Assembly (NCBI GenBank): GCA_002245135.1
Contig: NGBS01001162.1
Span: 310,001 to 350,087 of the forward strand
Direction: 5' to 3'
Length of the DNA: 40,087 nt
Source: Proteromonas lacertae
Taxonomy: Eukaryota
A program made the translations under genes and the position numbers. Within the stretch, counting starts at the first letter, position 1; every line of letters starts with the position of its first letter. The notes under the pieces are model-generated. The model did no database searches, was not told the origin of the DNA, and worked only from the letters and a program-made list of their open reading frames with translations. Positions 1 to 19,940 of the stretch are shown in pieces.

Positions 1-12
1 AAATAATTATGC

Positions 13-166
13 CATCTTTTAGGGTCAAAGTAGCCTCTTGTGTGTTAATATGGTATAAAATGCCTTCGTATCTAATTTCAGCTTTGGATATGATTGAAAC
101 TTTGCTACCAATATAAGAAACCTGTGAATTGTCTTGTGGAGGTTGGGCTGCTGCAGTATCAGCCAT
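13..166 (-). CDS. LSM14: LSM14/Scd6-family protein, first exon (gene continues off the window's left edge)
   Basis: Manual translation from ATG at 166 gives [51 protein letters not shown], matching the Lsm14 N-terminal motif [20 protein letters not shown]. It is followed by a probable intron starting GCATAATT at 12. Confidence 0.9.
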
Positions 167-232
167 TTATTTTAAAATGAAGAAAATGATGTGTTAGATC
201 TGATTTAGTCGCATTTTACTTAAAATTGAATT

Positions 233-1616
233 ATGGATGATCTAACGTTTAGTTTTCAAGAAAATCAGAATAGGGCAAAATTAGAAGAGGTGTATAAACC
301 GATGGAGAAGCGTGAAGATCTACCAGAGAATAATGCCTATAATCTAAAACAAACAGTGAGATACAGACCTGGACAAGTATAAACAAATATTTGGTTTTTA
401 CAATTTTAATAGGCTCCACATTGGGTAAAAGATGAAGAAAGTAGTGATGAAGAAGAAACAGTAAAAAGAGAACCTTTAAAAATAATAGAATCATCTGTAT
501 GAATATATTTATTATTGTTATTTAAATAGGATGAACAGTTGATTTATAAAAATCAGACAAATCAAACTCAAACCAGACGAAGAGAAAGACACTATGAACC
601 AATCATATTAGATAACAAAGAAAACACAATTGAAAAAACAAATGAGTCAATAACAAATCAAGAAACAGAGGAATCAATTCTACAAAGAAGAATGAGAGTA
701 AGACAAAAACAACAGGAAGAAGAAGAGGAAGAAGAGGAAGAAGAAATGCCAATTCAAGAGGAGGAGGAGGAGGAAGAAGAAGAAGAGGAGGAAGAAATGG
801 AAGAAGATGAAGATGATGATGAATGAAGATGATGATGAAGAAGAAGAGGAAGTATGTTTAGCTAAACCAGTATATATTCCTAAAGAGTATAGAAATATAA
901 TCAAAGCCAAAGAAGAAAAAGAGAAACAATTGGAAGAATTAAAAGCCAAAAAACAATACGAAGATGAATTAAGAAAAGCTGAAGTACATACAGAAGTATT
1001 AAAATTATTAGAAAAAGAAGAAATTGATAAACAAATGAAGGATTTAGATAATGATGATGATAAACCAGATGATACAGATTATCCAGATGATCAAGCCGAA
1101 GAGTTTGAGTTATGGAAAGTAAGAGAATTAAAAAGAATACAATTATATTTACAACAGAAACAGCAATTATTAGATGAAAAGAAAGAAACTGAAAGAAGAA
1201 GTAAATTGACAGATGAACAGCGTAAAAAAGAAGATGAGGAGTTAATACGTAAAGGATTAAAGAAAGGCGAAACTGAGAAGAAACAATGGAGTTTTATGCA
1301 GAAATATTATCATAAAGGTGTATTTTACATGGATGAAGATTCTATTAAAGATAAAAATGATGTTAGAAATAAAGATTATTCAGAACCTACAGCTAGTGAT
1401 GCTCATATTACTGAAGCTACACCTGCAATTATGCAAAAGAGAGATTTTGGTAAGAAAAGTCAAACGAAATGGACTCATTTAACGAATGAAGATACTACTA
1501 ACTGGGAAAACCCTTGGTTTCAGAAAGATAAAGCTAGAAATAAGTATAATAACAAATTAGCTGGTTATAAAGGTGATTTGAATGATGCTGGTAGAAAGAG
1601 AAGAAAATTGAAATAA
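233..1616 (+). CDS. MFAP1: MFAP1/Spp381-family spliceosomal protein
   Basis: ATG at 233. Introns 377-412 (36 nt) and 497-529 (33 nt) join the exons in frame to ORF 539. Acidic tract, then LAKPVYI, FELWKVRELKRI, FMQKYYHKGVFY and KWTHLTNEDTT, all typical of MFAP1. One apparent extra base near 823 in a GAA/GAT repeat splits the ORF. Confidence 0.9.
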
Positions 1617-1697
1617 TAATGATGTTTGTATTAGTAATTATATAAAAAATATACAATAATAAAAGACAAAAAAATATAAAAATATATTTATTAATTT

Positions 1698-2252
1698 TTA
1701 AACATTGATATTGTTTTGAAGAAAAAATTGCCATAAAAATTTGGTTAAAGGTTCTATAACATAATCATAAAATCCCATAGCACCATAAAACTGCAATAAC
1801 CATAACAAAAATATAAATCTGACAATGTAAGGGAAAGGAAAACTATTGATATAATAATAACACGATTATACAGATCATCTACCCATGGTAATGTTTTTTC
1901 TATCAACAATAACAATGAAAACATTGCCCAAAACAACAAAAAGTTGATTCTATATCGCTTTTGATGGTGATGGCATTTGCATTACATATGAAAAAAATGG
2001 TAGTATTACAAACATCATATTGCTATATTTATTAATTAATGATATAATCATACCTTACTAATCTCTCTCCCAGAACAGTTACAAACATAAGATATATACA
2101 TAATCCAATTATAATGACGATAATTAGTGGATCTATTTTTAGTTTTGATGATACAATGCTTTATAAATTCTAATATTGTTAATTCTTTAAACTATACTAT
2201 ATTTGTTGAGTGTTATTGTATCAAAATCAAATCCAAGTGGCTTTAATAACAT
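1698..2252 (-). CDS. TB2/DP1/HVA22 (REEP/Yop1-like) membrane protein; 5' structure uncertain
   Basis: Splicing intron 1843-1871 gives FLLFWAMFSLLLLIEKTLPWVDDLFPFPYIVRFIFLLWLLQFYGAMGFYDYVIEPL, with stop at 1698-1700. This resembles the REEP pattern. Upstream exons need frame corrections near T-runs at about 1940-1997. Confidence 0.6.
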
Positions 2253-2346
2253 ACTAAAGAATACTTATATATCACTTATAGAGAAATGTGAGGAAATATT
2301 ATGTTTCAAAAATTATATTCGTTAGTAAATTACAAAAATTACAGAA

Positions 2347-3101
2347 ATGTATTTCATTAATTTTCTATTGTTCTATAGGTGTAATTTTATAGCTAAATCG
2401 GTACTTTGCATAGTTAACACTATAATTCTTGTATACTAAAATATTTTGAGTTGATAAATAGATTATTGGTGTTGCTTTGATTGGTTTAGGTATTGTGGGT
2501 ATTGTATATGCAGAAAAACTTGGTATAATTATATCTATTATGTTTAGGTGAAGGATTGTTACCACATGCTTTAATGTACAGTGTATTGGGAGTTGGAGGA
2601 ATAATACTTCTAATATCTATCCTTGGATATATAGCAATGTGTAGAACTGATAAAATTGGTTGTTGTACTTCTTGTTGTGGATATATGTACGGTTTCTTAC
2701 TATTTATAATGATTATTGCTGAATTATTATTCACATTGTCATTTTTATCATTAGTGGATAAGGTTAAGTTGAATGTCTCACCATTCACTGATATAAGAGA
2801 AGTATTTGATATTGGTATAAATACAACATATGACTTATGCTGTTTAAATGCAACTGAATTAGTTGACCAATGCACTTTCTTAGGAGATAATCCAAAATGT
2901 GATACAATTGACGAATTTAAAGATTTTGTATTGACTAAACTAGATCCTTATGTAATGCCAATATTCTATGTATTTCTTGGTATAATGATTGCTGAATTAT
3001 TATCTCTATTGAGCGGTTGTTGTTTAGCAAGTATGAAGAAATATCAAGAAATGCATCATCCTGATAGTTTTGCAGAACCATTATTAAAAACAGCTCCATA
3101 A
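2347..3101 (+). CDS. Tetraspanin-like 4-TM protein, paralog 1
   Basis: AT(2347-2348), intron 2349-2378, then G. Further introns at 2431-2461 and 2523-2547. Product MCNFIAKSVLCIVNTIILIIGVALIGLG... has four TMs, Glu in TM3/TM4, and CC plus further Cys in the large loop. Confidence 0.8.
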
Positions 3102-3136
3102 TCTTACATTGTTTTACATTATATTAATTTTTAAAA

Positions 3137-4387
3137 TTAAATTCTTGTTTTTGTATTGGGATATAAAGGAAATTTTACATGTGAAGGTTTTTCTATGTTC
3201 AAATACTTTCTAACTTTATCAACATTCTCTTGAATATTGTCAATTCGATAATCATTACTATCGTTGTATGTCCATTTCGAATTACACGGAACTAGTTCAT
3301 ATTTAACTACTCTTCTTGTATGTCTAACATATCCAACATTCTCATTAACTACAACCTCTCTAGCTCCTTCAATAACTTCTTGAAAATTATGAATCTCTAT
3401 TTCAACTATTGATGATAAATTTACAACCCAATTCTTAGCTATATAACCAAATTTCAAATTACAATATTCTTTTGCATCAAATATATCTATATCTTTAATA
3501 TTATAATCATAGGAATCTGATTTTTTATAAACATTTTCGTGATATATTCTATTGATAAATATGTAATAATCTCCTTTCTCTTTTGTCTTTTCAATAATTG
3601 ATGTTAATTTATTACTTTCATTTGGCCATATAATCTCATCCATATCTGTATAAATTAGAGATTTTGATAATTTCATATGATAATACAAACAATCATTATT
3701 CTTAAATATTTGTCCCATATAAAAATGATATAATCTTGTCATTTCAAATTCTTTATTCCACATAATTACATCCATTATATCCAAATCAATATAATAATTT
3801 ATAACTTTAATAATTTCTGGAGTTGCTGATGTATAATATAATGTGAAATGATCAACACCAAAATATCGATATGTTTCAATCGTTTGAATAAATCTATTCA
3901 CAGCTACATAATCATGTAATACACTTATACACACTGTAATGTCATATTTTGGTGGTCCAGTGTAATACTTTGGTATGTTTATAGTTGCATTGTTTAGAAT
4001 AACTGTGTTTGGAAGGATGTTTGATGATAATTTGATTAGAATATGAACTTGAGGTTGGGTATTTATTATATACGATCTCACTGTTGGTATGCAATTAATA
4101 ATATTATAATCATCATAAATAAGCTTACAAGGTATTTTAGGAAGTGTTTCATTTTCATAAACACTAATTAATCTCAATGCTTTGAATCTTTCATCATAAT
4201 AAATACTAATTACATATGAATTTGGAAGGAATTCAATTAAATTTAACTTTCTGTATTTTTTTATCAAAACATTACTTAAATTACTATTCTTTGAATCATT
4301 GTTACTTTCTATTTCATTATTGTAATTTAATAGAGCTATAATTGCAATAGATGATATAAGTAATATAAATAATAAGTAAATATACAT
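3137..4387 (-). CDS. Glycosyltransferase family 92 / DUF23, type II membrane protein
   Basis: Likely ATG at 4387 (MYIYLLFILL, signal anchor). Motifs ITVCIS, FGVDHFTLY, GQIFKNNDCLY, DMDE and GYVRHTR. Confidence 0.8.
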   Translation of the reverse strand: MYIYLLFILLISSIAIIALLNYNNEIESNNDSKNSNLSNVLIKKYRKLNLIEFLPNSYVISIYYDERFKALRLISVYENETLPKIPCKLIYDDYNIINCIPTVRSYIINTQPQVHILIKLSSNILPNTVILNNATINIPKYYTGPPKYDITVCISVLHDYVAVNRFIQTIETYRYFGVDHFTLYYTSATPEIIKVINYYIDLDIMDVIMWNKEFEMTRLYHFYMGQIFKNNDCLYYHMKLSKSLIYTDMDEIIWPNESNKLTSIIEKTKEKGDYYIFINRIYHENVYKKSDSYDYNIKDIDIFDAKEYCNLKFGYIAKNWVVNLSSIVEIEIHNFQEVIEGAREVVVNENVGYVRHTRRVVKYELVPCNSKWTYNDSNDYRIDNIQENVDKVRKYLNIEKPSHVKFPLYPNTKTRI

Positions 4388-4431
4388 TATTTTTGAATTA
4401 ATAAAATAGAGTCGTTTCAGTTTATATAAAA

Positions 4432-5096
4432 ATGTCATTTGTGAGGAAGGTAGTTTGATGATTCTATGGATATATGGAATCAATGCTTAAACCATCCATT
4501 TTTACAAGAATTAGCAAGAGGAATATTATCAGAAGAGAAAATGAGAGTGTATATGATTCAAGATAGCTTGTATCTTCGTGAATACGCTAGAACGTTTGCA
4601 GCAGCCATTTATCATTCCACATACAATTCGTGATATTCAGTTTTATTACATGTTACTTGGTTTTGTCACTGAAGGAGAGAGTGTAACAAGATTAAACTAT
4701 CTGAAAAAGTCTGGTTTAACTGATGATGACATTGATAAAATGTCACCATTACCAGAAAACAAAGCATATACAGATCATCTACTTAAATATGCTGATAAAG
4801 GCGAAATTCCAGAAATATTAATGGCTGTTTTGCCATGTACATTTAGTTATGTTTATATATTCCGTAAGCTTGTTGAAACTATTCCTGATATTGAAAAATC
4901 AAAATACATTGATGTTATTCATGATTATTCAAATGATATTTATGTTAAAGTTTGTGAAGATTTTGGTAAATTTACTGAAGAAAAGTGTAAAGACTTACCA
5001 GAAGAAAGAAAGGTAGAATTATTGAAAATCTTTAGAGAATCAAGTGAACATGAGTTAAAGTTTTGGGGAATGTCATATTCGTGTAAAATGGATTAA
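4432..5096 (+). CDS. tenA: Thiaminase II / aminopyrimidine aminohydrolase TenA, bacterial type, intronless, two apparent frameshifts
   Basis: Correcting extra bases near 4455 and 4621 gives MSFVRKVVDDSMDIWNQCLNHPFLQELARGILSEEKMRVYMIQDSLYLREYARTFA...AVLPCTFSY...EHELKFWGM, containing the HPF, YMIQD, catalytic LPC and ExxFW motifs. Confidence 0.88.
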
Positions 5097-5154
5097 TTAA
5101 CAATCAAAAACAACAATCAAATGTATAATATAGTATTAATTGAAGATAATAATA

Positions 5155-8098
5155 CTATATTGTCATTGTTTGAGAAGGTAAAAGATACTCTTCTTTGTTG
5201 AGTGGTTTATTTCCTCTATTATTCTTTATTTCTCTACAGATCAATACAACAACAACTATTACTAAAACTACACATACTACTGTCACAATTGTAATAATTA
5301 ATAATTGATTCTTATCACTATTCTTATCATTATTTACTATTATATCATTTTTGCTTATAACTTCATAACTTTGATTTTCTTCATTAAATGACAATTCATT
5401 TCCAAATACAGTTGATTTAAATGGAGTAAATTTAAATGATAATTCAACTTCTTCATATACAATATGATATCTTTCTGTGTTATTAATTGGTATTAATATT
5501 TCACCTTTTTCTTGTTTTACAGGCATAGTCAGAATAAGTCCAAGAATAAACAGGTCTAATATTCAAAATATCAATATCATTATTAAATGTAAATGAATAG
5601 ACTTGGCCATATCCACCAGTATTATTATTGATTTCACGATAAGATATTAATACACTAATATCATTCAAACCATTAAAACAACTCAAATCTTTGGTATAAT
5701 TACCATTATCAGTTTCTATTTTTACCTCTAGACCAGATGGAATACTTCCACTAATATCAATATAAAAGTAATCATTCATATCCATAAATAAGATTGGATA
5801 TATGAATAATTCATTGGTTTTGAAATGACGTGTTTGTATTAAACCAGATTGAGTTTTACAACCAGTTGGAATAACTGCTGGACGAACTTTAAATATAAAA
5901 TTATTATCACTGTTAGTTCCAATAAATTCATAAGCAATTCTTTTATCAATATTATCATTTTGATATAAGTAGAAATGTTCTCCAGTGGTTGTTTCTTTAT
6001 CTTTATTTCTGCCCAATAAATACACTTCACTAAACCCTTGTATTTTTAAATCATCTAATGATGTTACAATTCTCCCTTCTTCTACTTTCACAGAGATAAC
6101 AGTATTATATAAATCACTAATAATAAAATCACTCAAATCATCATCAAGCTTCAATTCATCCGCAAACAATATATTACCATTTAATAATTTCGTTTCAGAT
6201 CCTTCATCATCAATTATTGATAATACAGCCTTTTGATAATATACAAAATAAAATTTTGGTTTCTTTGCTTTCTTTAATCTAACATTCGTTGATCCAATAT
6301 TATTATTATCATCACCATATCTTATAGTATAATAATTACCATCATCATTATTATTCATAATACCAAATGTACCAAATCTATAATGATCCATTACTTCATT
6401 ATCATCTAAGTTATATATTCTTGGAGTATTTATATCTCTTAATCCATTAGATAACATATAACTCCATGAGAAATCTACCAATCTTTCACATGCAATATGA
6501 TTCGTTTCTCTTTCTACAGTTTTCATACAGTTATATACATTTGGTGAGAATATTATTGTTGGATTTGGTGGAGGATTATTTACAACTTTATGTGGTACAT
6601 TTGGATAATATTCAATCTCTACTTCAATATAAGGTAATTCACTATATGCTTTTATTGTTTCATCATTTATTGAATCTTCATTCACTTCAATATTAACAGG
6701 AGGATGCCATTTAGTCATACGAATAGAATAAGTACCAACATCTTGTTCTTTAGGATAAAAAGTAACACCTAATGGTAAGGAAGTACTCAAGATAGAAGTG
6801 ATATTCTCAAAATTAGCATCAAATAAAACAGGACATTTCCAGTGATCATATCGAAAATCAAAATCTGGATCACTTTTCTTTACATCACCAGGTGTAAATC
6901 TTACACCTTTATTTCTCCAATCTCTTTGACCATTCATATTCCATCGAAACTCTAAGGCTAAACTACCAGAAACAAATGTTGGATCATCCATCTTCGTATA
7001 GATTGATTCTTTTGACATTGGAATTCTTACACTCATTCCATTATGATCAAATGGAATATCATCTAATACTTCATTACTTGGATGATTCTTTAATAAAAAT
7101 TGTTTACAATATGGAAAATCCCAAGCAAATATTCGATATTTCTCTTTACTACCAGACTTTGGTGTTAGAAAAAAATATGGTTCAATTCCATTTATAGTCA
7201 ACATATTTATATAATGAGTGATTCCTGGTATACCCCACCATGATATTTTATTACCCATTATATTAGCACTATCTAATAAATCACATTCAAAGACAAATTT
7301 ATTAACTAAACCAGTTTCACTATTCTTCTTGAAATTAGCATGTCCAAATGCTACATTATGATATAATTCATGAATTGTTGTTAATACTTGAGCACTATTA
7401 GGATCCATTGCATAGTTATACCATTTTATCAATGCCCAATATTTAGTAACATGTTGTACATACCAATCAACATGACCAGATGTAGCCTGTCCTTTAACAG
7501 CTGGATATGCAGTTGAATCATCAGTAAAAAATACTCTTGAATTAAAACTATCTCTATCACATATTCCATCCAATTTACATGCTTGATCAATTATATAATT
7601 ACGAAACTCTGTTGCACTTCCAGTATCATAATTAGCATCTAAACATTGAGAGGATATGTAATTATCTTTAAATGATACACGAGCTCGATTGGCAGTTAAT
7701 AATTTCACACTCAAATCGAAATATTTTATTGCGTTATTCACTTCAGCTACACTTATACAATCATCTTTGTCATTTCGTTTTCTTGCTCGCATAATAGCAA
7801 ATTTAATTTCTTGTCCAAAGAGAGGAGAATAAGGCTGAGATTGTAGTTGTCTGCTTTCTATCTCTAATGGAACATATGTCAACATTTCTACTCTATATGG
7901 TTCATATAATTTATATGAGACAATAGCATCACCAGATTTCAGTTTAAAGTCATTACTGTTGATAATTTCGTAATCAAACAACGATCCATTAGACAGCGAA
8001 AATGTCCCTCTATTTTCACTCATAATAAACACTGTTTCATTCCAGTGTATTTCTGTACACGAAACAAATGATAAAAACACCAGAAATAAACAAAACAT
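5155..8098 (-). CDS. Large type I membrane zinc metallopeptidase-like surface protein
   Basis: Signal peptide MFCLFLVFLSFVSC from ATG 8098 and metzincin-like HELYHNVAFGH. ORFs 5501-8113 and 5155-5526 overlap and probably form one gene broken by a frameshift near 5510-5525. C-terminal TM followed by a short tail. Confidence 0.65.
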
Positions 8099-8244
8099 TC
8101 TAATAAAAACCAACTGTATTTGTATTTCTGTATTTTTGTATTTTTTCTTTTATGGAATTATTACAATCAAATCTCAATAAACAACATATATTACTTATTC
8201 TGAATATATAAATTATGTATATTTATATATAAAAAATATATAAA

Positions 8245-8998
8245 CTAAACTGGTGGTTGAACATTACCTTTTGTTTCAGGTGACACTTGCTGAGTTTGCT
8301 TCTTGTTACATGACATAACACATGTAATAATTACACCTAATATTTCTATAACTGCAAACACTATTAAAAGTATAGCTAATGGATTGAATAATGATTCTAT
8401 TTTATCTGTACAATCATCAAAGTAAATATCATAGCTTGTACAGTTTGAATCTTTAAAGAAATCACATGAATAGGATGAAGAATCGGTTGGTTCACCCAAA
8501 TCACAACATTCTTTAAATGATTCATCCACGCCATGAACATATTGTTCATAAATATCATTAAATGGCCATGAGGTTGTTTCATATTTTCCAATGACATTCA
8601 TAAATCCCAATGCAATAATAATTTCGAGTATAAGAACAATAACAACAAATATTGAATAACTATTTGAATAAATACTTATTATAATTATACATGATAGTGT
8701 CCCAATTTAAGCAACATGTTTTTGCTTTACTGCTAGATGAAGCAATACAACCAAACGTAGCAACTAAGATTAACACTATACCAGCAATTAATAGAATTAT
8801 TCCCAATGACATTGGCGCTATACTCGCCTTTTGAATATAATAAATCAAAATAGCAGCAAGTACTACCACCGCTATACCAACAATCTAGTTTTATTATAAT
8901 ATAAAACTATATATACGCATATGACGAAGTTAACTATCCATAGTAAAGTCTTTAGTAAACACTTACACCTATTACATGAGAGAGGTAAAGAAATACAT
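8245..8998 (-). CDS. Tetraspanin-like 4-TM protein, paralog 2
   Basis: AT(8998-8997), intron 8969-8996, then G. Further introns at 8885-8916 and 8660-8690. Product MCKCLLKTLLWIVNFVICIVGIAVVVLAA...ECC... Confidence 0.8.
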
Positions 8999-9177
8999 TT
9001 TTTTAACCGTTTTTTAATAATTGTTTTGATTTTTCACTCTCTTTTTCTGTCCAACGTGAAAATAGTATGTTGCAATTTGTCTAAACAATATTTAAACACA
9101 AAAACTATATGTAAACATTATTAACATTATATATTTAGAAATTGTCAAGTAAATACAAACATTTATATTAAATTAAC

Positions 9178-9977
9178 TCACAAACAACTGACATTAGAAT
9201 CCTTTTCAGCTTTTACACAACATGTTAAAATTAATATGATTACCTATATAATATGAGTGAATATTAAGATATACTTCAATTGCCATAACAGCAATAATAA
9301 TACCAAATATACTATCTGTATATGAACTCATTTCTTGGATTATATTTTCTTTCAATTGTTCTGGAGTTTTAAATCCTTCACAAAGTGTTGGGAAGAAATC
9401 ACAAGAAGAAATACCAGTTTTATTAACACAACATTTATTAAATGTTGAAGTAACACCTTTGCTAAATGTTTCTTTAATTCCAGCCATAGGCCATGCTATT
9501 AAGAATGAATTAGAGAATAATCTGTGTTATACCATTAATATCTACTTTATCCATTAATTGCATCACACATAATAGAGCTAATACTTCAGCTGCTAATGCT
9601 ATTACAATTGCTGCTGAATAACTATAAGTAATTAGCTAAATTACAAAATACATAGATAAAAACATGCATCTCGTATATTTACAACATTTATAAGAGCAAC
9701 TACCAAGTGCTCCAAATAAGAATATAATTATCCCAATAGCAACTACACAATCACCAAGAGATTTGTTAACTAAATCTTGTCCTAGTCATAATATAATGCG
9801 TACTTGTATACCAATATTATCAGCACACCAAATTAGAAGAATACCCAAAGCAGAAATAACAATCCCAATTAACTAGTTTGTGAAGAATGAAAGATACTGT
9901 GAGGATTGAATTGACTATTGTAAGAGCACACTGTAAAACACAACAAATCCTACGAGTTATGAATGGAAGCAATACAT
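9178..9977 (-). CDS. Tetraspanin-like 4-TM protein, paralog 3
   Basis: AT(9977-9976), intron 9950-9975, then G. Introns 9873-9897, 9782-9811, 9622-9651, 9496-9532 and 9244-9274 give a continuous frame MICCVLQCALTIVNSILTLIGIVISALG...KCC..., ending at TGA 9178-9180. Confidence 0.8.
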
Positions 9978-10088
9978 TATTTATCACTTTCTTTTTTGTA
10001 TATCCGTTATACTATTCTTTGAACAAATGTTAGAAGTTTGTTCAAATTACCCATAAAAAAAAGTTAAACGAACTACTTATTGTATTTA

Positions 10089-10967
10089 TTAAAATTTAAG
10101 TGCATGATACAACTTATTTCTATTTATAGAATTATTTTGTATCTTAATCCACTCATCTAAAGTTATCCGATCAAAAACACTACACTTATTACTTATATCT
10201 TCTTTATCAATAACTTTAATAGATAAACCATTTATTGTAGCACATTCTATAAGTGTAGCTTCACTAAAAGTATGTCTTTTATGTTTTATATTCTCTGTAA
10301 CAAAACTAATTAATCTATTTGATATTCTTGCTATATTTATTTGACCAACTAGTCTTTTACCTCCTAGTTTTGCTTCTTTCCATTTTGTATATTGCGGAGT
10401 TGAACAATCTATCCACATCCACGTTTCATTTGAAAAATGCTCTGAATAAGGTTGAGTTATAAAATCATTGTCAAATTTATCATATTTTCTAAAAAAGTCA
10501 AAAAAATTCCCATTATATCCTAAGTCTTGTTCAACTAACCATAAATATTCGAAGTCAATATCTAATTTATTTATCCCTAAAAGTACATGTTCTATACTAG
10601 ATGTCCACATATAGTATCCAGGCCATTTATCTGTACAAAGTCCTGTCATTGCTTTTAATTGCGGTAATTCTTGCATAAACTGATTTTGAGTTACACATAA
10701 TATTGAAATGGTTGTTATATTGTTCTTTAAATCACAATTATCCGTAATGATAACAACATAGTAACTGGGTGTTTTTTCATTATTCCATTCTTTGTATCTT
10801 TGAATTTGGTGGTATGTAGGAGAAGATGCATGCATAACTACTACTGATTTATAAATGACTTTTAAATTCTGTGTTTTTTGTAGTGAGGATAAGAATAAAT
10901 TGTGATTTAAGTATACTAAACATACTAAAAACATCATAAATATCCCTAAAAAAAAGTAAAATTGCAT
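10089..10967 (-). CDS. Type II membrane putative glycosyltransferase (DUF3405-like)
   Basis: Signal anchor from ATG 10967, YLWLVEQDLGYNG and C-terminal NKLYHALKF resemble the W..EyD...G / LYHPvK pattern. Family assignment is from memory only. Confidence 0.5.
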   Translation of the reverse strand: MQFYFFLGIFMMFLVCLVYLNHNLFLSSLQKTQNLKVIYKSVVVMHASSPTYHQIQRYKEWNNEKTPSYYVVIITDNCDLKNNITTISILCVTQNQFMQELPQLKAMTGLCTDKWPGYYMWTSSIEHVLLGINKLDIDFEYLWLVEQDLGYNGNFFDFFRKYDKFDNDFITQPYSEHFSNETWMWIDCSTPQYTKWKEAKLGGKRLVGQINIARISNRLISFVTENIKHKRHTFSEATLIECATINGLSIKVIDKEDISNKCSVFDRITLDEWIKIQNNSINRNKLYHALKF

Positions 10968-11062
10968 TTTCAATACTAAACAACAAACGCTAATCAAACT
11001 TTGATTATCATTAGAAACGAGTATATTTTTGAATTAAAAAGATTTGAAAATTGTTTTTAATC

Positions 11063-11995
11063 ATGAATCGACTTATTCATATAGATAGAATATTTATTAA
11101 TAAATCTATTAGGCCAGGATCAATAGTTTCAAGAAGTTTCAGCACTGAAACAAAGAAGAAAGACATTCGAATTTATAAAGGTGAAGGTGTGAGTCCTCTT
11201 GGATATAAAATGACTAAATTCTCAATAGAAAAGTTTTGCAACTTAGACAAATACAATGTGAAGTCTATAACCCCAGAACAGGTAATATCTGAAGATTGGG
11301 AAGCAAATACTAAATTAATCGTATTTCCTGGTGGTAGAGATATGCCATACGTAGAAGCACTGAGTAATAATCAAGGTAAAAAAACAGGTGGTAATAAAAG
11401 AATTCGAAAGTTTGTAGAAGAAGGTGGTAGTTATTTTGGAATATGTGCTGGTGCCTATTATGGTACTGATCAAGTGCAATTCGATACAGGTGGAAACCTC
11501 CAAGTACAAGGTGAAAGAGAATTGAAATTCTTCCCAGGTATAGCTGATGGTCCAGCATATGAAGGATTTTCTTATACTGATGAGTCTTATGCAAGAAGTG
11601 TTTGGATATTATATCCATTCTTTTATCCTACACTAGTTGAAACAATTCTCACTGCCAGTTGTTGGTTTTTCGGTGGACCACATTTTAAACCTTATGTAAA
11701 GGATGATGATCGTTATAAAGTACTTGCATATTATTTCCCTCATACAAATAAGAATTTTACTGAAGATGATGCAATTGCTGCAGTATCATGTAATGTAGGT
11801 AAAGGTAAAGCTGTATTATGTGGTCCACATCCTGAATATGATCCTGAGATGATGCCTAAACATGCAAATGCTACTATGATGATGGATATGTCAGATCCTT
11901 ACTTTAATACTTGTAGAAAAATATACTTGTATATATTCATTAAATGTATATGTAGAATATCAAAATGGATTTTAGATTCGATATACAAGAATTAA
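11063..11995 (+). CDS. Stand-alone biotin-protein-ligase N-terminal (BPL_N, class I glutamine amidotransferase-like) protein
   Basis: Motifs IYKGEGVSP, VFPGGRDMPY, FVEEGGSYFGICAGAYY and GPHPEY. Arg/Ser-rich N-terminal extension. Possible in-frame 27-nt intron at 11929-11955. Confidence 0.8.
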   Translation: MNRLIHIDRIFINKSIRPGSIVSRSFSTETKKKDIRIYKGEGVSPLGYKMTKFSIEKFCNLDKYNVKSITPEQVISEDWEANTKLIVFPGGRDMPYVEALSNNQGKKTGGNKRIRKFVEEGGSYFGICAGAYYGTDQVQFDTGGNLQVQGERELKFFPGIADGPAYEGFSYTDESYARSVWILYPFFYPTLVETILTASCWFFGGPHFKPYVKDDDRYKVLAYYFPHTNKNFTEDDAIAAVSCNVGKGKAVLCGPHPEYDPEMMPKHANATMMMDMSDPYFNTCRKIYLYIFIKCICRISKWILDSIYKN

Positions 11996-13776
11996 GAGCA
12001 ATTGCTTTTCTATTAGTTTTTATTTATCATTTAAATTCTTATTTACTACCAGGAGGATATATTGGAGTTGATATATTTTTTGTAATAGCAGGTTATATAA
12101 TTACATTGTCTTTATGTAATACTCACATAATCAACAAAAGTTATATATTATTTTATTCAAGAAGAATAAAGAGATTGTATCCGTCTAGTCTAACTTGCCT
12201 TATACTATATTACAGTTATCATCCATCAATTACCAAATATAGCCATGATGAGACACAACTTTATTATGATATAATATCATCATTACTAAGTTTTTCTAAT
12301 ATTAGATTTTATAAAGTAACAAGCAGTTACTTTCAAAGCGAAAAAAAATCTATTATTTTAAATTACTGGTCACTATCATTAGAAGAACAATTCTATATAT
12401 TTTATCCTCTACTATATTTTTATCTCTATAACTATATTATTTATTTGATAATAATATTGTATAGTTTTTATAAATGTGTAATAAATACATATAAAAATGA
12501 TTCATCATCGTATTATCTTCTCTCTAATAGGGTATGGGAATTGTTAATAGGATGTATAATTAATAAATATGATGTCAAATATCATTTAAATAAGGAATTT
12601 GTAATTTGTATATTGATTATTTCATCATATGTAATAGGATTATCTACTATGTTAAAATTCCCAGGATATATTTCATTATTACCGATAATCCTCACGTCTT
12701 CAATCATTACACAACAAAATCATATACTATTTAATAGCAGAATACTTTATAAAATAGGAAATATGTCATATGTTTTATATTTGTTTCATTATCCAATCAT
12801 ACAAAACAATTCCTCTGTTTGTATAATATTATTAAAAATAATGTTGATATCTGTTTTTGTTTATCGTTATATTGAAATGCCTATAAGGAACGTAAGTAGT
12901 GTTTGTATATTATCGATAGTAAGCCTTACATTTTCATTCACATTTATTATCGTTATAGTTAAATCAATTAATGAAAATAAGAAACATCAAAAAAACAAAG
13001 CATATACTTATAATTATTGTTTTATTCAACTAAAATGTTATAATTCTTTTCTTAACAAATTGAATAGAAATACAATTCTGTTAATTGGTGATTCTCATCT
13101 TGGTCATTATCTACCTGTTATTAAAGCAACTCTATACAATTATAATGTTGATTATATATACTTTATTCAGGCATGGATTATAAACATAAAAAAGAATTAT
13201 ATCTTCTTATCTAAATATATAATTCAACAACAGAAAATTCAGTTATGCATTATGTCTATGTATGTTGATTATGAATTACTTTATACAAATAAAACTGAAT
13301 TCGAATATGCTTTTAAGTATTTGATAAAATCAATATTACAAATATCAGAAGGAATTATTATATTTCAAGATAATCCCCATAGATTTAGAATAAATGATAC
13401 AAAATGCAAAAGAGTATTATTACCAATATTAAAAAATAAAAAATTAACGTATATAGATATATTTAATAGATATTGTAAAGGAAGTAAACAATGCTTAGAG
13501 AATATCTATTCTAAGAATATATTTTCGGATATGCATCATTTGAATTTAAATTTTGTATGTCAAACAAAATTAATATACTCAACAATTAACTATGCTATAA
13601 CAAGATATTTAAAAATAAAAGTAAATAATAAAACCTTTTTATGTTATAAAATGGATATTTATTTTAATCACAAATATAATCAAGAATTTATAAAAGAGTA
13701 TAATATTAATACTATTAAATCAATAAAGTATGGATTATTTGGGTTTGATGAGACTCCTTTATTCGAATATATATAA
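11965..13776 (+). CDS. OafA/OatA-type O-acyltransferase (acyltransferase_3 plus SGNH domain)
   Basis: Motifs FRFDIQELRAIA, GGYIGVDIFFVIAGY, RRIKRLYP, WSLSLEEQFY and SYVLYLFHYP, followed by SGNH motifs GDSH and DMHH. Confidence 0.9.
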   Translation: MDFRFDIQELRAIAFLLVFIYHLNSYLLPGGYIGVDIFFVIAGYIITLSLCNTHIINKSYILFYSRRIKRLYPSSLTCLILYYSYHPSITKYSHDETQLYYDIISSLLSFSNIRFYKVTSSYFQSEKKSIILNYWSLSLEEQFYIFYPLLYFYLYNYIIYLIIILYSFYKCVINTYKNDSSSYYLLSNRVWELLIGCIINKYDVKYHLNKEFVICILIISSYVIGLSTMLKFPGYISLLPIILTSSIITQQNHILFNSRILYKIGNMSYVLYLFHYPIIQNNSSVCIILLKIMLISVFVYRYIEMPIRNVSSVCILSIVSLTFSFTFIIVIVKSINENKKHQKNKAYTYNYCFIQLKCYNSFLNKLNRNTILLIGDSHLGHYLPVIKATLYNYNVDYIYFIQAWIINIKKNYIFLSKYIIQQQKIQLCIMSMYVDYELLYTNKTEFEYAFKYLIKSILQISEGIIIFQDNPHRFRINDTKCKRVLLPILKNKKLTYIDIFNRYCKGSKQCLENIYSKNIFSDMHHLNLNFVCQTKLIYSTINYAITRYLKIKVNNKTFLCYKMDIYFNHKYNQEFIKEYNINTIKSIKYGLFGFDETPLFEYI

Positions 13777-13858: not shown

Positions 13859-14333
13859 CAGTGTTTTGCAACTTACTTATACAGTATTTCCTAATACGTA
13901 ACGACATTTGTTGCAAAATAGATATACCATTGCATAACTATTATACCATTTTGCATAATACTTATATTTTTTATCAAGCCATTTCATTGTACATTATATA
14001 ATGCAAAATAAATATACAAATCTCAAGCCTTTTCAAGAATTTCTATTCTATTATTTTACAATAAGAAGTATGGATAGAGCGTTATATATCTATCCTCTTC
14101 ATAACAGTTCTTTGTATTATGAAGTTTATATCTTCAATAGTGCTAAAACATTCAGCAGGACTGATTGTAGAAAATATATTTGTTATACTTTCAAGTATTT
14201 GATTTCTGTTCTGGTAAATGCTTTTTTTCCATATGCCAAAGATATTTTCCTAATACAATTACTTTTAAAACAAACTAATATCATTTTTATCTTTGTTATA
14301 AAGAGTTATTATCAATATTAAACCAATTCTTTT

Positions 14334-14483
14334 ATATTTTCTATTTTAAAGTTTCAGTCACTACTACAGTCTAAAATACATTATTTGATATGAATAAATT
14401 TCAATAATTTTAATAACAACTTATTTAAAAAAGAAATTAAAAAGCTGGCTTGAGTGAGGCTTTAACTTTTTTTTTCTTTATTT
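14334..14483 (-). repeat. Truncated, inverted copy of palindromic element A including the central core
   Basis: Aligns to the reverse complement of about 15935-16090 (CTACTACAGTCTAAAATACATTA). Core GGCTTGAGTGAGGCTT at 14447-14462. Confidence 0.8.
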
Positions 14484-14499
14484 GCGGGAGGAGTGATCG

Positions 14500-15115
14500 C
14501 GCGCGATAAAGAAATTTGCTCGGTAAAGGAAGTAAGAAATTTCCATTAAAGTGAATATGTTAATACTTATTTGGAAGGCCGAGTAAATATAAATACAACA
14601 TCATTTTGTCTAATTTACTAAATATATTGAAATAATACTCAAATTTTCTATGATATTTATATCATCTATTATTAATCTTTATAACTATTTTATAATTGGA
14701 ATTGCTAGAGTATATTAGCATTTATGTCTCATTAACATATTGATGCATATATAGTGCCCTTTAAAAAAATATAGAAGAAAAAAGAAAATAAGGTCAAGCC
14801 TTCATCAAGCCAATATTTTATTTTTTATTTTAAATCATCGTAACACCGATTTTGTTTTATCTTATCATCAAAGAATTAATAACTCCATTCTCTTCCAGTG
14901 ATATATGCAATAAAAATAATGTTATATGATAGAAATAAGGAAGATGAATATGAAGTGAATATTTGTTAATAATTAAAGATAACTATTGTTCATGAATGTT
15001 TTAAGACAAAATGATTATATATTCATACATTACATGATGACATTAACAATAGTATTATATTAGATCTAAATATAAACAATTACTTCCTTTACCAAGCAAA
15101 TTTCTTTGTCGCGCG
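14500..15115. mobile_element. Degenerate palindromic element D (616 bp)
   Basis: 36-bp terminal inverted repeats at 14500-14535 and 15080-15115 with 2 mismatches. Internal inverted match ATCATTTTGTCT/AGACAAAATGAT. Central core CAAGCCTTCATCAAGCC at 14795-14811. Confidence 0.75.
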
Positions 15116-15117
15116 AC

Positions 15118-15450
15118 AGGACTGGAGCATTTAGCATTGAATAAAAGTGTATAACCAGATCCTTCAATCAACATTTTAACCTGGTCTGAATGATGGATAT
15201 TTACATTGTCCATAAAAAAGCAGAATTTACCCTTTGATTTTAGAGCATCTAATAAGTATTTCAAGTATGTTGTAAATACCTCAATACTATTTGGTCCGTA
15301 AATGGTATCACACCTATGAAAACCTAAATTAATCATAGTAGCTATAATTGTAATATCTGTAGCACCTCTAGCCATATGAACGATTGGTGTTGTTCCTTCG
15401 TCAGACCTTGCACATCCATTGACAACTCCCATACTCCAATGGGTTTCATC
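15118..15450 (-). pseudogene. IS630/Tc1/mariner (DDE_3) transposase fragment
   Basis: DETHWS...FFMDNVNIHHS...LLFNAKCSSP contains the first and second catalytic Asp. The sequence is cut by element D just before the expected SPxLNPIE Glu. Confidence 0.85.
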
Positions 15451-15659
15451 TTAGTTGTTGTGTGTTGTTCCCCTTTTACTTCCTTGAAATAATTCTTAAT
15501 AGGCTGTCTGTTATGCATAACAAACTTTGAAGGATTGAATGCAATAATATGATAAGTAACATTGGATGGATTATCACAATTAGGTTCAGCTTGGTTGCAA
15601 TACCCTTTAATGGTATAATACTGAACATCCTTATCATCTAAGGTGATGTAATTCTCGTT

Positions 15660-16282
15660 TGTTGTTCCCCGTATGTCTGAACTCTATATTGCAGAATGAT
15701 TCAATCAAAACTAATATGATATTCATGATGTTCGGAGTTAGTTATTAACAAATATATAGTTAGTTTGTCATATGACCTACATCTGTGATATACTTATTTA
15801 TGAACTTCATTATTATCAATATTAAACTAATTTTTGTATATTTTCAATTTTAATGTATCAGTGACTACTACAGGACTAAAATACATTATCTGATATAAAT
15901 AGAATTCATTATTTTTAATGTTAAGGCGGTTAAAAAATAAAAAAGAAAAAAGAAGTTCAAGCCTCACTCAAGCCTGCTCTTTAGTTTCCTTTTTTATTAC
16001 CTTAACATTAAAATTAATGTATTCTATTTATATCAGATAATGTATTTTAGACTGTAGTAGTTACTGATACATTAAAATTGAAAATATACAAAAATTAGTT
16101 TAATATTGATAATAATGAAGTTCATAAATAAGTATATCACAGATGTAGGTCATATGACAAACTAACTATATATTTGTTAATAACTAACTCCGAACATCAT
16201 GAATATCATATTAGTTTTGATTGAATCATTCTGCAATATAGAGTTCCGCCATACGGGGATTTCCGCCATACGGGGAACAACA
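15660..16282. mobile_element. Palindromic element A (623 bp, near-perfect ~270-bp arms)
   Basis: Ends TGTTGTTCCCCGTATG...CATACGGGGAACAACA. Arms are almost exactly reverse-complementary. Core CAAGCCTCACTCAAGCC at 15958-15974. 17-bp tandem duplication at 16244-16277. Confidence 0.9.
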
Positions 16283-16909
16283 GTTGTGCGCCGTTTGTCA
16301 TAGTTGGCCGTTTGTCTGCCAGACACTTTTAAAATAAACTAAATGTATATTCTTACTTGTCTTGATGAAAAATTGTTACTTTTACTTTTATACTTACTTT
16401 GTTATATGACCTACCTCTGCAGTATACTTTTTTGTTAATATAAATAGTTTGAATATTTGCGCCTTTTGTTTTCTAGAAATTATTGAAACAAACTAAATGC
16501 ATAATTAGCTAATATAGACTAAAATACATTAGATGAAATGATTAGAACAACTTAATGTTGATCACAAGACATTTAAAATTAAAAAAGAAAATATAGATTC
16601 AACCCTCCCTCATGCTTTCTTTTACATTTCTTTTTTTATATAGAAAGATTTAATAATTATTATATTCTAATTATTTTACCTAATGTATTTTAGTCTATAT
16701 TAAGCTAAATATACATTTAGTTTGTTTCAAAAAATTCTAGAAAACAAACAGGAGCAAATATTCAAACTATATATATTAACAAAAAAGTATACTGCAGAGG
16801 TAGGTCATATAACAAAGTAAGTATAAAAGTAACAATTTTTCATCAAGACAAGTAAGAATATACATTTAGTTTGTTTTAAAAGTGTCTGGTAGACAAACGG
16901 CGCGCAACA
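16283..16909. mobile_element. Palindromic element B (627 bp), directly abutting A
   Basis: Ends GTTGTGCGCCGTTTGTC...GACAAACGGCGCGCAACA with long reverse-complementary arms. Core variant CAACCCTCCCTCATGCT at 16600-16616. Confidence 0.88.
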
Positions 16910-16934: not shown

Positions 16935-17541
16935 CTATATTTCTTCCACATTTATTTTACAATGAACTGGATCTTCACCGTTTTTTAAATAACATTTGTA
17001 TTGATTACTACATTTGATATATATACATTTATTGTTATTTATAAACTGCAACACATAATTCTAGTAAGGCGCTGAAAAATTGAAATCTATTCCTTCTAAC
17101 TTTCCATCTTCATATAATCTCCTTACTTCGCTTGTGGCATCAGACGGTTGACTTATTTAAGTCATAAATTTAATGAAAAATGATAATGAAAATTATCAAG
17201 CGAAAAAGCTTGTTTGTTTTTCTTTGAAGAACTATTTCTCTTTTATAACTATATATTACTTCATAGTATGATTGTATTAATTATTATTATTAGCTGCATA
17301 TATCATTTTATAATCTTTTTTATATATGCAAGTTAATAGTGTCTTAAAATAGATTTTAACATTATATGGCTTGAAGTTTGACCGACCGAAGGTCAAGACA
17401 AAACAGAAAGGTTTTGACCGAACCTCTTCGGTTGACCGATAAATACAACACTGTGAAAATTTGCATAGGAATAATGAATGGAGTTATTCATGCAAAGAAC
17501 TATGATTAACGGCCAACTCTGACAAATAGCTCACAACAACA
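16935..17541 (-). mobile_element. Element E: a family-type terminus followed by a decayed ORF, possibly the 5' end of a coding element
   Basis: GGCCAACTCTGACAAATAGCTCACAACAACA ending at 17541 resembles the end of element C. Minus-strand frame 17165-16935 reads MT*ISQPSDATSEVRRLYEDGKLEGIDFNFSAPY*NYVLQF... with two premature stops. Confidence 0.5.
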
Positions 17542-17662
17542 TGTTACTATACATATTGTTGTGAGCTATCAAGTTTGAAATATTTATTAGAAATGTTAAA
17601 AACTATTCATATCAATTTTTTTATGATACTTTACATTCCAAAGAAATCTTATTTTATAATCG

Positions 17663-18698
17663 CTATTCTTTATTAAAGAATGTAATTATTTCATTTTTTA
17701 TATTTAATATTTTTTTCTTTTTAACTACATAGCTTAAATTGTATTTTCTATCTAACAACAACCCAGATTTTAAAACAGCAGTTAAACCAAATGTACTTCT
17801 TGATATTATAAGAAAACTACTTCTTGAAAGTATTTCATGTTCTATAATTATAGTAGTGTCATTTTAATGCTTCGCATAATGGTTTGTGATATTTTTGGAA
17901 TAAATAAATATGTTTTTATAAATGTTACTTAATTTAATCTTTAATTCTTTTGAATCTCCTGTTAAAAACCATTTACTTTTATAAAAATACTTAAACGCAA
18001 TCTTAATCATTGTATTTATTTCATTGTTATTTATTATTTGTTTTTCTTTCAGATCTGCATTTCCAACTCTCATTTGAATTCCAATAAAAGGCTTATTTGT
18101 TAGAATAGATAAATACTTATCTATTTTCTTTTCTATAGGTTTATTTATAATCAGCATTTTTGAAAATATTATATAGTATAAATAGAATGCATTCCATAAA
18201 TAATCAGCTCTTTTGTTTAATAATATGTACTTCTTTATATTTTTATAAAAATATATATCATTAGCTATACCAGTTGTTATGTCACACCATATGTAACTAA
18301 AGTATTTAATTTTCTTTTCAATACGTATGCTCTTTAGATTATTGATATTAAAAGGACATATACAAAATTGTGTTAGTTTTTCAATTTTAGTAGTTGTGAT
18401 ATTGTATTGAGGGAAATGATAGAATAAATCAAACTCATTCCAATTTAATACTAAATAGAAATAATAATGTTGCAATACAGTAAGGCTTTGACTGAAAATA
18501 GAATGACAATATAATTATTCCTGCAAATGACATTAATCTATTACCAAGTCCAGCAATAATATTTACATTCACTTCAGTTTGTGATGTTTTATACATTTTT
18601 ACTATGTTCTGTAAATTAATATTTGTATTTTTGTTATGTAATATAATTAAAATCAGAAAATTAAAACATAAAATAAGAAGTATAAATAATGTTTCCAT
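17663..18698 (-). pseudogene. Fucosyltransferase-like (GT11/GT23/NodZ fold) gene with an in-frame TAA
   Basis: TM anchor, AGLGNRLM, intron 18451-18478, IGIQMRVG and WFLTGDS. TAA at 17864-17866 is followed by 66 more open codons with EILSRSSFLIISRSTFGLTA, ending at TAG 17663. Confidence 0.75.
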
Positions 18699-18791
18699 AA
18701 GAATAATATACTAATATATATATTTTAAGTATTTGTATATATATATCTATAAAACGCAATCTAAATCGATAAATGATAAAAAGAAAAGTAT

Positions 18792-19940
18792 ATGTTTCAT
18801 TTATCTATTTTTATTGTATATATATTTATATCTTGTATATTATTATTAAAGAAAGTATATACATTATTTGAAGTGAGTTATACATGTAATCATCAGTGTT
18901 TATCAAAAATAGATAAAGATGTTTATATATACTATGCAAATATTAATAAAAAGCAGAATGAATTAATACTAATTGGAGTATCATTTCCGTATCACAGAAG
19001 AAATTATAAATGCAAGATTATTTATCAGAACTTTATTTCTTTATGTAACATCAGTTATAAACATAAATATAATATTAACAAGATAATGAATTTATCATAT
19101 ATATCGATACATCTATCACTAAGAACTATAAACAAAACTCCTATAGGGGTGTTTATAAATAATAAATATTTGCCGTTGATAATATATAAGCCTAATAGAT
19201 ATTACGATATTATTTTAGTAATAGTAAATTTTCATAATATTAGAAATTATAAGCAAGTTATTGATGTAATTGAAATATCGATAATCTATGGAGTAGATCA
19301 TATTGTTATGTATGTGACATCATCAACATTATTTATTAAATCTATATTGTATAATTATGTAAAAAGTGGATATATTGAATTACTACCATTCTGTTTTAAT
19401 AAAGAAATAAAATATGTTCATGAAACAGGACAAGTAGAAAAAATTAATGATGCATTATACAGATATATGTATAATACAAAATATATAATATTTCATGATA
19501 TTGATGAAGTTATCATACCTATCACGATAAAGGATTATTTAAAGTTTATAAAATATGTAGATAATAATACAAGTGATATGTATCTATTTAAATCCAAATT
19601 ATTTTCATATGAATCTAAGGAATACAATTCTATAATAACGTATAAAGATTGTTGTTTTGTAAAAAATGGCTATGAAAAATACATAGTTGGCAATCTGTAC
19701 AAATATTCTATGCTTGATGTTCATATATATAAGGAATCTGTTCTACCTATAAAAATAAGATCTATAAATAAAAACTATGGATATGTTAGACATACTAGAT
19801 TCAAAGGTAAAATGTGTAATAAGCATTTAATTGATAATTCCTTAGATTATTTAGAAAAGCATTTGAAAAAAATATATAGAAAATTCGAAAAAATGTTTAA
19901 ACATAATGAAAAATTGTACTATTATGGTAAGAAATCTTGA
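18792..19940 (+). CDS. Glycosyltransferase family 92 / DUF23
   Basis: Signal anchor, YGVDHIVMY, GQVEKINDALY, DIDE and GYVRHTR. Paralog of 3137-4387. Confidence 0.8.
   Translation: MFHLSIFIVYIFISCILLLKKVYTLFEVSYTCNHQCLSKIDKDVYIYYANINKKQNELILIGVSFPYHRRNYKCKIIYQNFISLCNISYKHKYNINKIMNLSYISIHLSLRTINKTPIGVFINNKYLPLIIYKPNRYYDIILVIVNFHNIRNYKQVIDVIEISIIYGVDHIVMYVTSSTLFIKSILYNYVKSGYIELLPFCFNKEIKYVHETGQVEKINDALYRYMYNTKYIIFHDIDEVIIPITIKDYLKFIKYVDNNTSDMYLFKSKLFSYESKEYNSIITYKDCCFVKNGYEKYIVGNLYKYSMLDVHIYKESVLPIKIRSINKNYGYVRHTRFKGKMCNKHLIDNSLDYLEKHLKKIYRKFEKMFKHNEKLYYYGKKS

What the first reader, a model, noticed from the sequence alone, without database searches (positions are those of the whole stretch)
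2347..9977. An intron splits the start codon (AT^G) in all three tetraspanin-like paralogs
Seen: each gene reads AT|GTATT...TAG|G, with introns 2349-2378 (30 nt), 8969-8996 (28 nt) and 9950-9975 (26 nt). Each is followed by G plus exactly 17 codons and a second, phase-0 intron. The donor G also completes an ATG in the unspliced RNA, but that frame stops after 8 codons (paralog 2) or 6 codons (paralog 3). In paralog 1, retention adds 10 residues in frame. Inference: the position is conserved despite divergent proteins and intron sequences, so splicing could act as an on/off switch for these surface proteins. Gene predictors would miss this structure.
Basis: seen in the sequence. Interest (0 to 1): 0.7.

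Follow-up and report, generated by a model that had tools for sequence, protein, structure and literature searches.

The report
Start codon split by inherited intron
Three related membrane-protein (tetraspanin-like) genes of an unidentified, probably Blastocystis-like protist each carry a tiny intron-shaped insert inside the start codon, most likely an ordinary intron inherited once from their common ancestor rather than a special on/off switch.

Summary
Each of three tetraspanin-like genes reads AT|GTAT…TAG|G (2349-2378, 8996-8969, 9975-9950), then 17 codons and a phase-0 intron; 200 of 200 shuffles of bases 1-12000 lack this architecture. The spliced start is probably the real one: the conserved TM1 Asn falls at residue 14, against 12-18 in five uninterrupted homologues, and no typical upstream coding exon was found. 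The switch idea is not supported. The genes are paralogs (26-30% identical) that share other intron positions too, so this is one inherited event. Any AT^GT intron shows an ATG before splicing. Retention of 10 of 12 introns truncates the proteins, and the start-codon intron of paralog 1 is the only one whose retention keeps the frame. Start-codon-splitting introns are in print as relatively rare (PMC1626468); in Yarrowia, start-codon introns are the most efficiently spliced class (PMC13309789). No RNA run or genome was available, so splicing is inferred. This scan noted split start codons before on other DNA (e1-646152, e1-7897723). Side results: the first introns are pyrimidine-rich (post hoc), and intron 2 may be the ancient tetraspanin 'intron 1'.

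The parts
2347..2348 (+). Paralog 1 coding exon 1: AT of the start codon
2349..2378 (+). Paralog 1 intron 1, 30 nt, phase 2, inside the start codon; stop-free and in frame if retained
2379..2430 (+). Paralog 1 exon 2 (G + 17 codons; short cytoplasmic N-terminus and first half of TM1)
2431..2461 (+). Paralog 1 intron 2, 31 nt, phase 0, in TM1
2462..2522 (+). Paralog 1 exon 3
2523..2547 (+). Paralog 1 intron 3, 25 nt, phase 1 (about 27 nt and in frame in relative P0022)
2548..3101 (+). Paralog 1 exon 4 to TAA (TM2-TM4, large loop); model gives 222 aa
8997..8998 (-). Paralog 2 coding exon 1: AT of the start codon
8969..8996 (-). Paralog 2 intron 1, 28 nt, phase 2, inside the start codon; retention stops after 8 codons
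8917..8968 (-). Paralog 2 exon 2 (G + 17 codons)
8885..8916 (-). Paralog 2 intron 2, 32 nt, phase 0
8245..8884 (-). Paralog 2 exons 3 (8884-8691) and 4 (8659-8245, to TAG) with intron 3 (8690-8660, 31 nt, phase 2); model gives 220 aa
9976..9977 (-). Paralog 3 coding exon 1: AT of the start codon
9950..9975 (-). Paralog 3 intron 1, 26 nt, phase 2, inside the start codon; retention stops after 6 codons
9898..9949 (-). Paralog 3 exon 2 (G + 17 codons)
9873..9897 (-). Paralog 3 intron 2, 25 nt, phase 0
9178..9872 (-). Paralog 3 exons 3-7 (9872-9812, 9781-9652, 9621-9533, 9495-9275, 9243-9178 to TGA) and four further introns of 30, 30, 37 and 31 nt; model gives 206 aa

Best explanation
The three genes are tetraspanin-like paralogs that likely inherited one ordinary, constitutively spliced short GT-AG intron, probably gained once inside the start codon of their common ancestor gene. 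Shown: splice signals, open frames, shared intron positions and homology of the N-terminus. Inferred: the major spliceosome removes the intron in every productive transcript and joins AT to G. Translation then starts there and gives a four-helix membrane protein with a short Cys-containing cytoplasmic N-terminus. The position persisted because introns are rarely moved and Met cannot change. Unspliced RNA is unproductive in p2 and p3, as it is for nearly any intron in these genes. If the intron has a role, the likelier one is constant support of expression (intron-mediated enhancement), not switching.
For: Stop-free models of 222, 220 and 206 aa with four hydrophobic segments. Met-to-TM1-Asn distance is 14 in 3 of 3 paralogs, and 14, 15, 18, 12, 13 in the 5 uninterrupted homologues that have an N-terminal Met (a sixth, P0018, is N-terminally cut). 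A profile built only from those 6 homologues aligns from position 1 for p1 and p2; removing the first 18 residues costs 14 and 13 bits (only 2 bits for p3). Shared intron positions at nt 2, 54, 115 and 245/248. All 14 introns modelled (12 tetraspanin, 2 MFAP1) begin GTAT, end TAG and are 25-37 nt, so intron 1 is of the ordinary type. Relatives of p1 carry a 31-nt intron at an internal AT^G Met codon, read from their off-frame predicted proteins P0002-4, P0006, P0007, P0021, P0022, so AT|G junctions occur away from gene starts as well. A 30-nt intron of this composition is stop-free 77% of the time and 5 of 14 introns are 3n, so the in-frame p1 case needs no special cause. Yarrowia start-codon introns splice most efficiently and their genes vary least (PMC13309789).
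Against: No transcript evidence and no genomic sequence of orthologous 5' ends was obtained. The start-codon intron is kept in 3 of 3 paralogs while the nt-115 intron is missing in p2 and the nt-245 intron in p1, which could reflect selection (intron 2 is also kept in 3 of 3). The three first introns are more pyrimidine-rich than the other 11 (0.73 vs 0.55; 2 of 364 triples reach it), and p1/p2 first introns are somewhat alike (z 2.25, rank 4 of 91 pairs); both tests are post hoc and the introns are related by descent. For p3 the homology support for exon 2 is weak (2 bits).
Confidence: 0.75

Rival explanations
1. Regulated retention switch: the cell controls splicing of intron 1 to turn these surface proteins on or off; retained RNA would yield a 6-8 codon peptide in p2 and p3, or an N-terminally extended p1.
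For: Retention in p2 and p3 does abolish the protein; the next in-frame Met is residue 43 and 78, which loses TM1. First introns are pyrimidine-rich. An unchecked scan note (e1-7897723) describes a yeast thiamine riboswitch in an intron that splits a start codon, so regulated cases may exist.
Against: p1 retention keeps the frame and scores almost the same against the family profile (122.8 vs 124.9 bits). 10 of 12 introns truncate on retention. No shared RNA structure. At 26-30 nt there is little room for a regulatory element beside the splice signals (inference). Yarrowia start-codon introns are the best spliced class.
Confidence: 0.08
2. Lineage-wide habit: this protist places AT^G introns in many gene starts, and the tetraspanins are one instance.
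For: The GTAT donor follows AT at five modelled phase-2 sites (three starts, p2 intron 3, p3 intron 4) and in relatives of p1. Start-proximal introns are enriched in other compact genomes (PMC6349667; PMC13309789).
Against: 0 of 14 other candidate gene starts in the window begin with AT|GTA. The test is weak: these starts are first-ATG guesses and only MFAP1, and perhaps LSM14, contain introns.
Confidence: 0.12
3. AT^G is not the initiator: an upstream coding exon exists, or p1 is normally translated through intron 1.
For: One candidate for p1: an ATG 46 nt upstream joined through a GTTAGT donor and a 58-nt intron to the same acceptor. p1 intron 1 is 3n and stop-free.
Against: That donor and length match none of the 14 modelled introns. 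No candidate was found for p2 or p3, and in-frame stops lie 1-6 codons upstream in all three. Only 179 nt separate the p3 stop from the p2 start and 111 nt the upstream ORF from p3. N-terminal length matches the homologues.
Confidence: 0.05

Closest known systems
Start codon introns (Nielsen & Wernersson 2006, PMC1626468; passages read)
   Same: [quoted passage not shown]
   Different: Its enriched class is phase 0, after the ATG; codon-splitting introns like these are called relatively rare. Here the intron is only 26-30 nt and is shared by three paralogs.
Yarrowia lipolytica 'start codon' introns (PMC13309789; passages read)
   Same: 42 introns whose donor follows the A, T or G of the start codon; highest splicing efficiency, high and stable expression.
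   Different: A yeast with much longer introns (median 196 nt); the passages read do not give the number that are AT^G.
Encephalitozoon cuniculi 5'-biased ~25-nt introns (PMC6349667; one passage read)
   Same: Very short GT-AG introns at the extreme 5' end in a compact genome.
   Different: Usually in the codon after the ATG and mostly in ribosomal protein genes.
Tetraspanins CD9, CD81, CD53, TSPAN7 (PF00335) and their intron set (Garcia-Espana et al. 2009, PMC2650405; parts 1-3 of 7 and passages read)
   Same: Four-helix topology, TM1 Asn, vicinal Cys pair in the large loop; a phase-0 intron in TM1 that may be their ancient intron 1.
   Different: No CCG motif (CCL, CCD, CCV), shorter large loop, other introns are phase 1 or 2. 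That study excluded the protein ends, so it says nothing on start-codon introns.
Blastocystis gene structure (PMC5608401 and bioRxiv 10.1101/2023.11.20.567959; passages read)
   Same: Introns near 30 nt, tight gene spacing; GC 21-23% and canonical stops in reptile isolates; a TGTTTGTT-like downstream motif.
   Different: The organism is not identified here. The enriched motif is TGTTTGTA, not TGTTTGTT. 'Start codon' and 'tetraspanin' do not occur in the main text of either paper.

Membership tests
Major-spliceosome (GT-AG) intron | GT donor and YAG acceptor like the organism's other introns | tested here: met
   14 of 14 modelled introns are GTAT..TAG, 25-37 nt
Major-spliceosome (GT-AG) intron | Removal restores a reading frame homologous to uninterrupted relatives | tested here: met
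Major-spliceosome (GT-AG) intron | Absent from mature RNA (junction reads) | not testable with these tools
   no RNA run was listed
Intron disrupting the start codon (phase 2, codon 1) | The split ATG is the first in-frame Met and matches the homologues' N-terminus | tested here: met
   TM1 Asn at 14 vs 12-18; in-frame stops 1-6 codons upstream; one atypical upstream-exon candidate for p1 only
Phase-0 'start codon intron' sensu Nielsen & Wernersson | Intron between codons 1 and 2 | tested here: not met
   phase 2 within codon 1; a phase-0 reading would need TA..GG ends
Regulated intron-retention switch | Retention has the same outcome in all members and differs from ordinary introns | tested here: not met
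   p1 in frame, p2 and p3 truncated; 10 of 12 introns truncate
Regulated intron-retention switch | Conserved cis element or RNA structure | tested here: inconclusive
   no unusual folding; pyrimidine enrichment and weak p1/p2 similarity
Regulated intron-retention switch | Condition-dependent retention in RNA | not testable with these tools
Tetraspanin (PF00335) | Four transmembrane helices, small and large extracellular loops, 200-300 aa | tested here: met
   hydropathy on the models, 206-222 aa; large loop about 60 aa, a little under the 69-132 quoted in PMC2650405
Tetraspanin (PF00335) | Pfam score above the curated cut-off of 32.1 bits | tested here: inconclusive
   single exons score 23.3, 20.9, 16.9 and one had no match; whole spliced proteins were not scanned; 6 of 6 full-length homologues pass at 47-90 bits
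Tetraspanin (PF00335) | Homology to solved tetraspanins | tested here: met
   family profile A3 hits CD9, CD81, CD53, TSPAN7 at E 1.5e-12 to 2e-10; model of homologue P0010 ranks tetraspanins 1-9 in Foldseek, best E 1.2e-3
Canonical animal tetraspanin | CCG motif in the large loop (motif recalled, from no call) | tested here: not met
   CCL, CCD, CCV; the vicinal Cys pair and two further Cys are kept. Filed as tetraspanin-like.
Ancient tetraspanin intron 1 | Phase-0 intron at the same aligned position as in animal genes | tested here: inconclusive
   intron 2 is phase 0, four residues after the TM1 Asn; that Asn aligns with CD9/CD81; the animal exon boundary at this point is recalled, and Fig. 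1B of PMC2650405 could not be seen

The most novel reading that the evidence does not exclude
This protist keeps a distinct, pyrimidine-rich class of 26-30-nt introns inside start codons as a splicing checkpoint: the AUG of its surface tetraspanins is assembled only on splicing, and regulated retention silences p2 and p3 through a 6-8 codon decoy ORF while giving p1 a longer N-terminus.
Probability: 0.08. Interest if true: 0.65.

Novelty: new member of a known kind. Interest (0 to 1): 0.25.

Why it matters
Mainly for annotation: in short-intron protists a two-base first coding exon is easy to miss, and missing it would drop TM1 and the Cys-rich N-terminus from p2 and p3 or add 10 residues to p1. 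It is a clean example of an uncommon intron position kept through duplications that left the proteins under 30% identical. If intron 2 is the ancient tetraspanin intron 1, it would add a probable stramenopile to a position that PMC2650405 reports from animals and Amoebozoa. A regulated switch would matter more, but nothing here shows one.

Tried and rejected
No whole genome is held, so no genome-wide count was possible. No RNA holder was listed; this is no evidence on expression, and no reads were laid. A metagenome scan with p1 exon 4 found no relative among 247 candidate stretches. A scan with MFAP1 gave 80 distant loci (38-56% identity), none with tetraspanin or neighbour-gene hits in tblastn (the LSM14 query in that script was in the wrong frame and tested nothing); the prokaryote collection gave none. 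A search with the 55-codon frame across p3 intron 1 and exon 2 found nothing; 0 of 5 window proteins were in the exact look-up. The model of p1 exon 4 alone (no TM1, pTM 0.47) gave no meaningful fold match and no tetraspanin among the rows shown. The protein atlas gave no answer. RNA hairpins around the start codons were rejected. Paper searches for a report of split start codons in tetraspanins or Blastocystis (listings only, except the papers named elsewhere) showed none; one search was on Proteromonas. The library lacks most subscription journals. PMC6679479 (passages) shows a phase-0 case only. A recalled Giardia ferredoxin example could not be retrieved and is not used. No supplements were opened; those of PMC13309789 and PMC5608401 may hold AT^G counts, and bioRxiv supplements are closed.
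Full report
Setting. The window is eukaryotic, AT-rich (GC 0.20-0.32 per kb), gene-dense, and read by the standard code (open frames up to 882 codons). It has 25-37-nt GTAT..TAG introns. Pfam names MFAP1, LSM14, TenA, biotin-protein-ligase N, an acyltransferase-SGNH protein, several glycosyltransferases and a DDE transposase fragment. The only homologue of the target genes with a species name comes from Cantina marsupialis (a stramenopile, recalled). Intron size, spacing and low GC fit published Blastocystis features, so the organism is probably Blastocystis-like, but this is inference: no genome was held and homologue searches did not name it.

Observation. All stated coordinates hold. Joining exons gives stop-free proteins of 222, 220 and 206 residues with four hydrophobic segments, 26-30% identical to each other. 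The architecture AT|GTAT..YAG|G, 17 open codons, second GTAT intron occurs 3 times, against 0 in 200 of 200 shuffles of 1-12000. The bare ATGTA..AGG motif is near chance (4 vs 3.17).

Is AT^G the start? A phmmer search with p1 exon 4 gave 15 proteins at E up to 0.001. Six are near full length and uninterrupted, and all 6 pass the Pfam tetraspanin cut-off; one other hit (P0019, 1030 aa) is unrelated in architecture and was left out, and the rest are exon fragments of closer relatives. In the five with an N-terminal Met, the TM1 Asn is residue 12-18; in the three paralogs it is 14. A profile of those six aligns from residue 1 of spliced p1 and p2; exon 2 adds 14 and 13 bits, but only 2 bits in p3. 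In-frame stops lie 1-6 codons upstream. A search of 330 nt upstream for an ATG that could splice in found one atypical candidate for p1 (GTTAGT donor, 58 nt) and none for p2 or p3. The split codon is therefore very probably the initiator.

What the proteins are. A profile of the family hits CD9, CD81, CD53 and TSPAN7 at E 1.5e-12 to 2e-10. A model of homologue P0010 ranks tetraspanins first to ninth in Foldseek, though none reaches E 0.001. The model of p1 exon 4 alone was uninformative. The window's single exons stay under the Pfam cut-off and the large loop has CC without the Gly of the recalled CCG motif, so I file them as tetraspanin-like.

One event, not three. The paralogs share intron positions at nt 2 and 54 (3 of 3), nt 115 (p1, p3) and nt 245/248 (p2, p3). 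Predicted proteins from relatives of p1 show the nt-245 intron there too. P0002-4 and P0006 begin with the window's off-frame reading at 2677 and then hold ten extra residues; P0007, P0021 and P0022 stop just after the same Met. That intron is 31 nt and splits an internal Met as AT^G; the window's p1, P0001 and P0005 lack it. P0022 reads through a 27-nt in-frame intron 3, where the window has 25 nt. These readings are deduced from proteins, not from DNA. They suggest that AT|G junctions are not confined to starts, that intron lengths drift, and that in-frame stop-free introns arise incidentally. In the window 5 of 14 introns are 3n, and a 30-nt intron of first-intron composition is stop-free 77% of the time.

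The switch idea. The unspliced ATG is a logical result of AT plus a GT donor. Retention lengths for the 12 introns are 232, 20, 47 (p1); 8, 32, 92 (p2); 6, 43, 46, 86, 118, 207 (p3). So nearly every intron is 'off' when retained, and the start-codon intron of p1 is the one that is not. Folding around the three starts is unremarkable. In favour of some constraint: the first introns are pyrimidine-rich (0.73 vs 0.55; 2 of 364 triples) and p1/p2 first introns are mildly similar (rank 4 of 91 pairs). Both tests are post hoc, the introns share descent, and p3 intron 2 is as pyrimidine-rich (0.72). No RNA data could be obtained, so regulation is not excluded.

Is it lineage-wide? 0 of 14 other candidate gene starts begin with AT|GTA, but most of those genes look intron-free, so this is weak.

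Comparison with what is known. Nielsen and Wernersson describe the phase-0 peak after the ATG and note that phase 1 and 2 introns disrupting the start codon exist but are relatively rare (PMC1626468). In Yarrowia, 42 introns follow the A, T or G of the start codon; they splice best and their genes vary least (PMC13309789), which points to constant enhancement and away from switching. Microsporidian 25-nt introns sit right after the ATG (PMC6349667). My searches found no report of this structure in tetraspanins or Blastocystis, within a library that lacks most subscription journals. Two unchecked scan notes describe split start codons in other genomes.

Side result. Intron 2 is phase 0, four residues after the TM1 Asn. 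Garcia-Espana et al. infer a phase-0 'intron 1' in the common ancestor of eukaryotic tetraspanins and found it in animals and Amoebozoa (PMC2650405). From memory the CD9/CD81 boundary lies at this aligned point; I could not test it. If so, the '17 codons then a phase-0 intron' regularity is old tetraspanin gene structure.

Caveat on the assembly. The two arms of a large inverted repeat differ by 8 single-base indels and 3 substitutions over 9.1 kb, and several genes show frameshifts, so indel errors are likely. None is needed in the three tetraspanin models, but a one-base error in p1 intron 1 would change its in-frame status.

Verdict. A real, correctly described, uncommon but known gene structure, most likely inherited once and constitutively spliced. 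New member of a known kind; interest 0.25.

Noticed in passing
window 2679-2693 (+), and P0002-P0007, P0021, P0022: Intron presence/absence among close relatives of paralog 1: a 31-nt intron at an internal AT^G Met is read from relatives' predicted proteins but is precisely absent in the window, P0001 and P0005. It sits at the position of p2 intron 3 and p3 intron 4, so probably a recent precise loss.
   Followed up: partly
window 2431-2461, 8885-8916, 9873-9897: Phase-0 intron in TM1 that may be the ancient tetraspanin intron 1 of PMC2650405; the animal boundary is recalled, not tested.
   Followed up: partly
window 17263-26808 and 30548-40087: Inverted duplication with arms of at least 9.5 kb, running to the window end, holding a cluster of intron-poor glycosyltransferase-like genes. 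The 9.1 kb compared differ by 8 one-base indels and 3 substitutions, and several right-arm ORFs are broken. Real palindrome or assembly artefact.
   Followed up: partly
window 14300-16900 and 29749-30256: Nested inverted repeats, including near-perfect 208-nt and 232-nt arms with short spacers (MITE-like or foldback elements), and a broken DDE_3 transposase at 15055-15683 near a 36-nt inverted pair 14500-14535/15080-15115.
   Followed up: partly
window 1-30000; e.g. 1623 (+), 9161 (-): TGTTTGTA is enriched (10 vs 2.8 expected, 0 of 100 shuffles; motif chosen after seeing it) while the Blastocystis motif TGTTTGTT is not (4 vs 2.7). Two copies lie just after the MFAP1 and paralog 3 stops: a possible variant downstream polyadenylation element.
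   Followed up: partly
window 4432-5096 (+), about 820 (+), about 5520 (-): Apparent frameshifts in TenA/THI-4 (two), MFAP1 (one, in an acidic repeat) and a roughly 1000-aa single-pass membrane protein without a Pfam family (8098-5155, -); likely indel errors.
   Followed up: partly
window about 1680-2255 (-): Hydrophobic, probably intron-containing ORF pieces head-to-head with paralog 1; no Pfam family and no gene model settled.
   Followed up: partly
window 1-13 (-): The LSM14 frame runs into GCATAATT at the window edge, a possible GC-AG intron donor.
   Followed up: no
window 11063-13776 (+): Stand-alone biotin-protein-ligase N-terminal domain gene overlapping an intron-free acyltransferase-3/SGNH gene of bacterial type; possible lateral acquisitions.
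   Followed up: no
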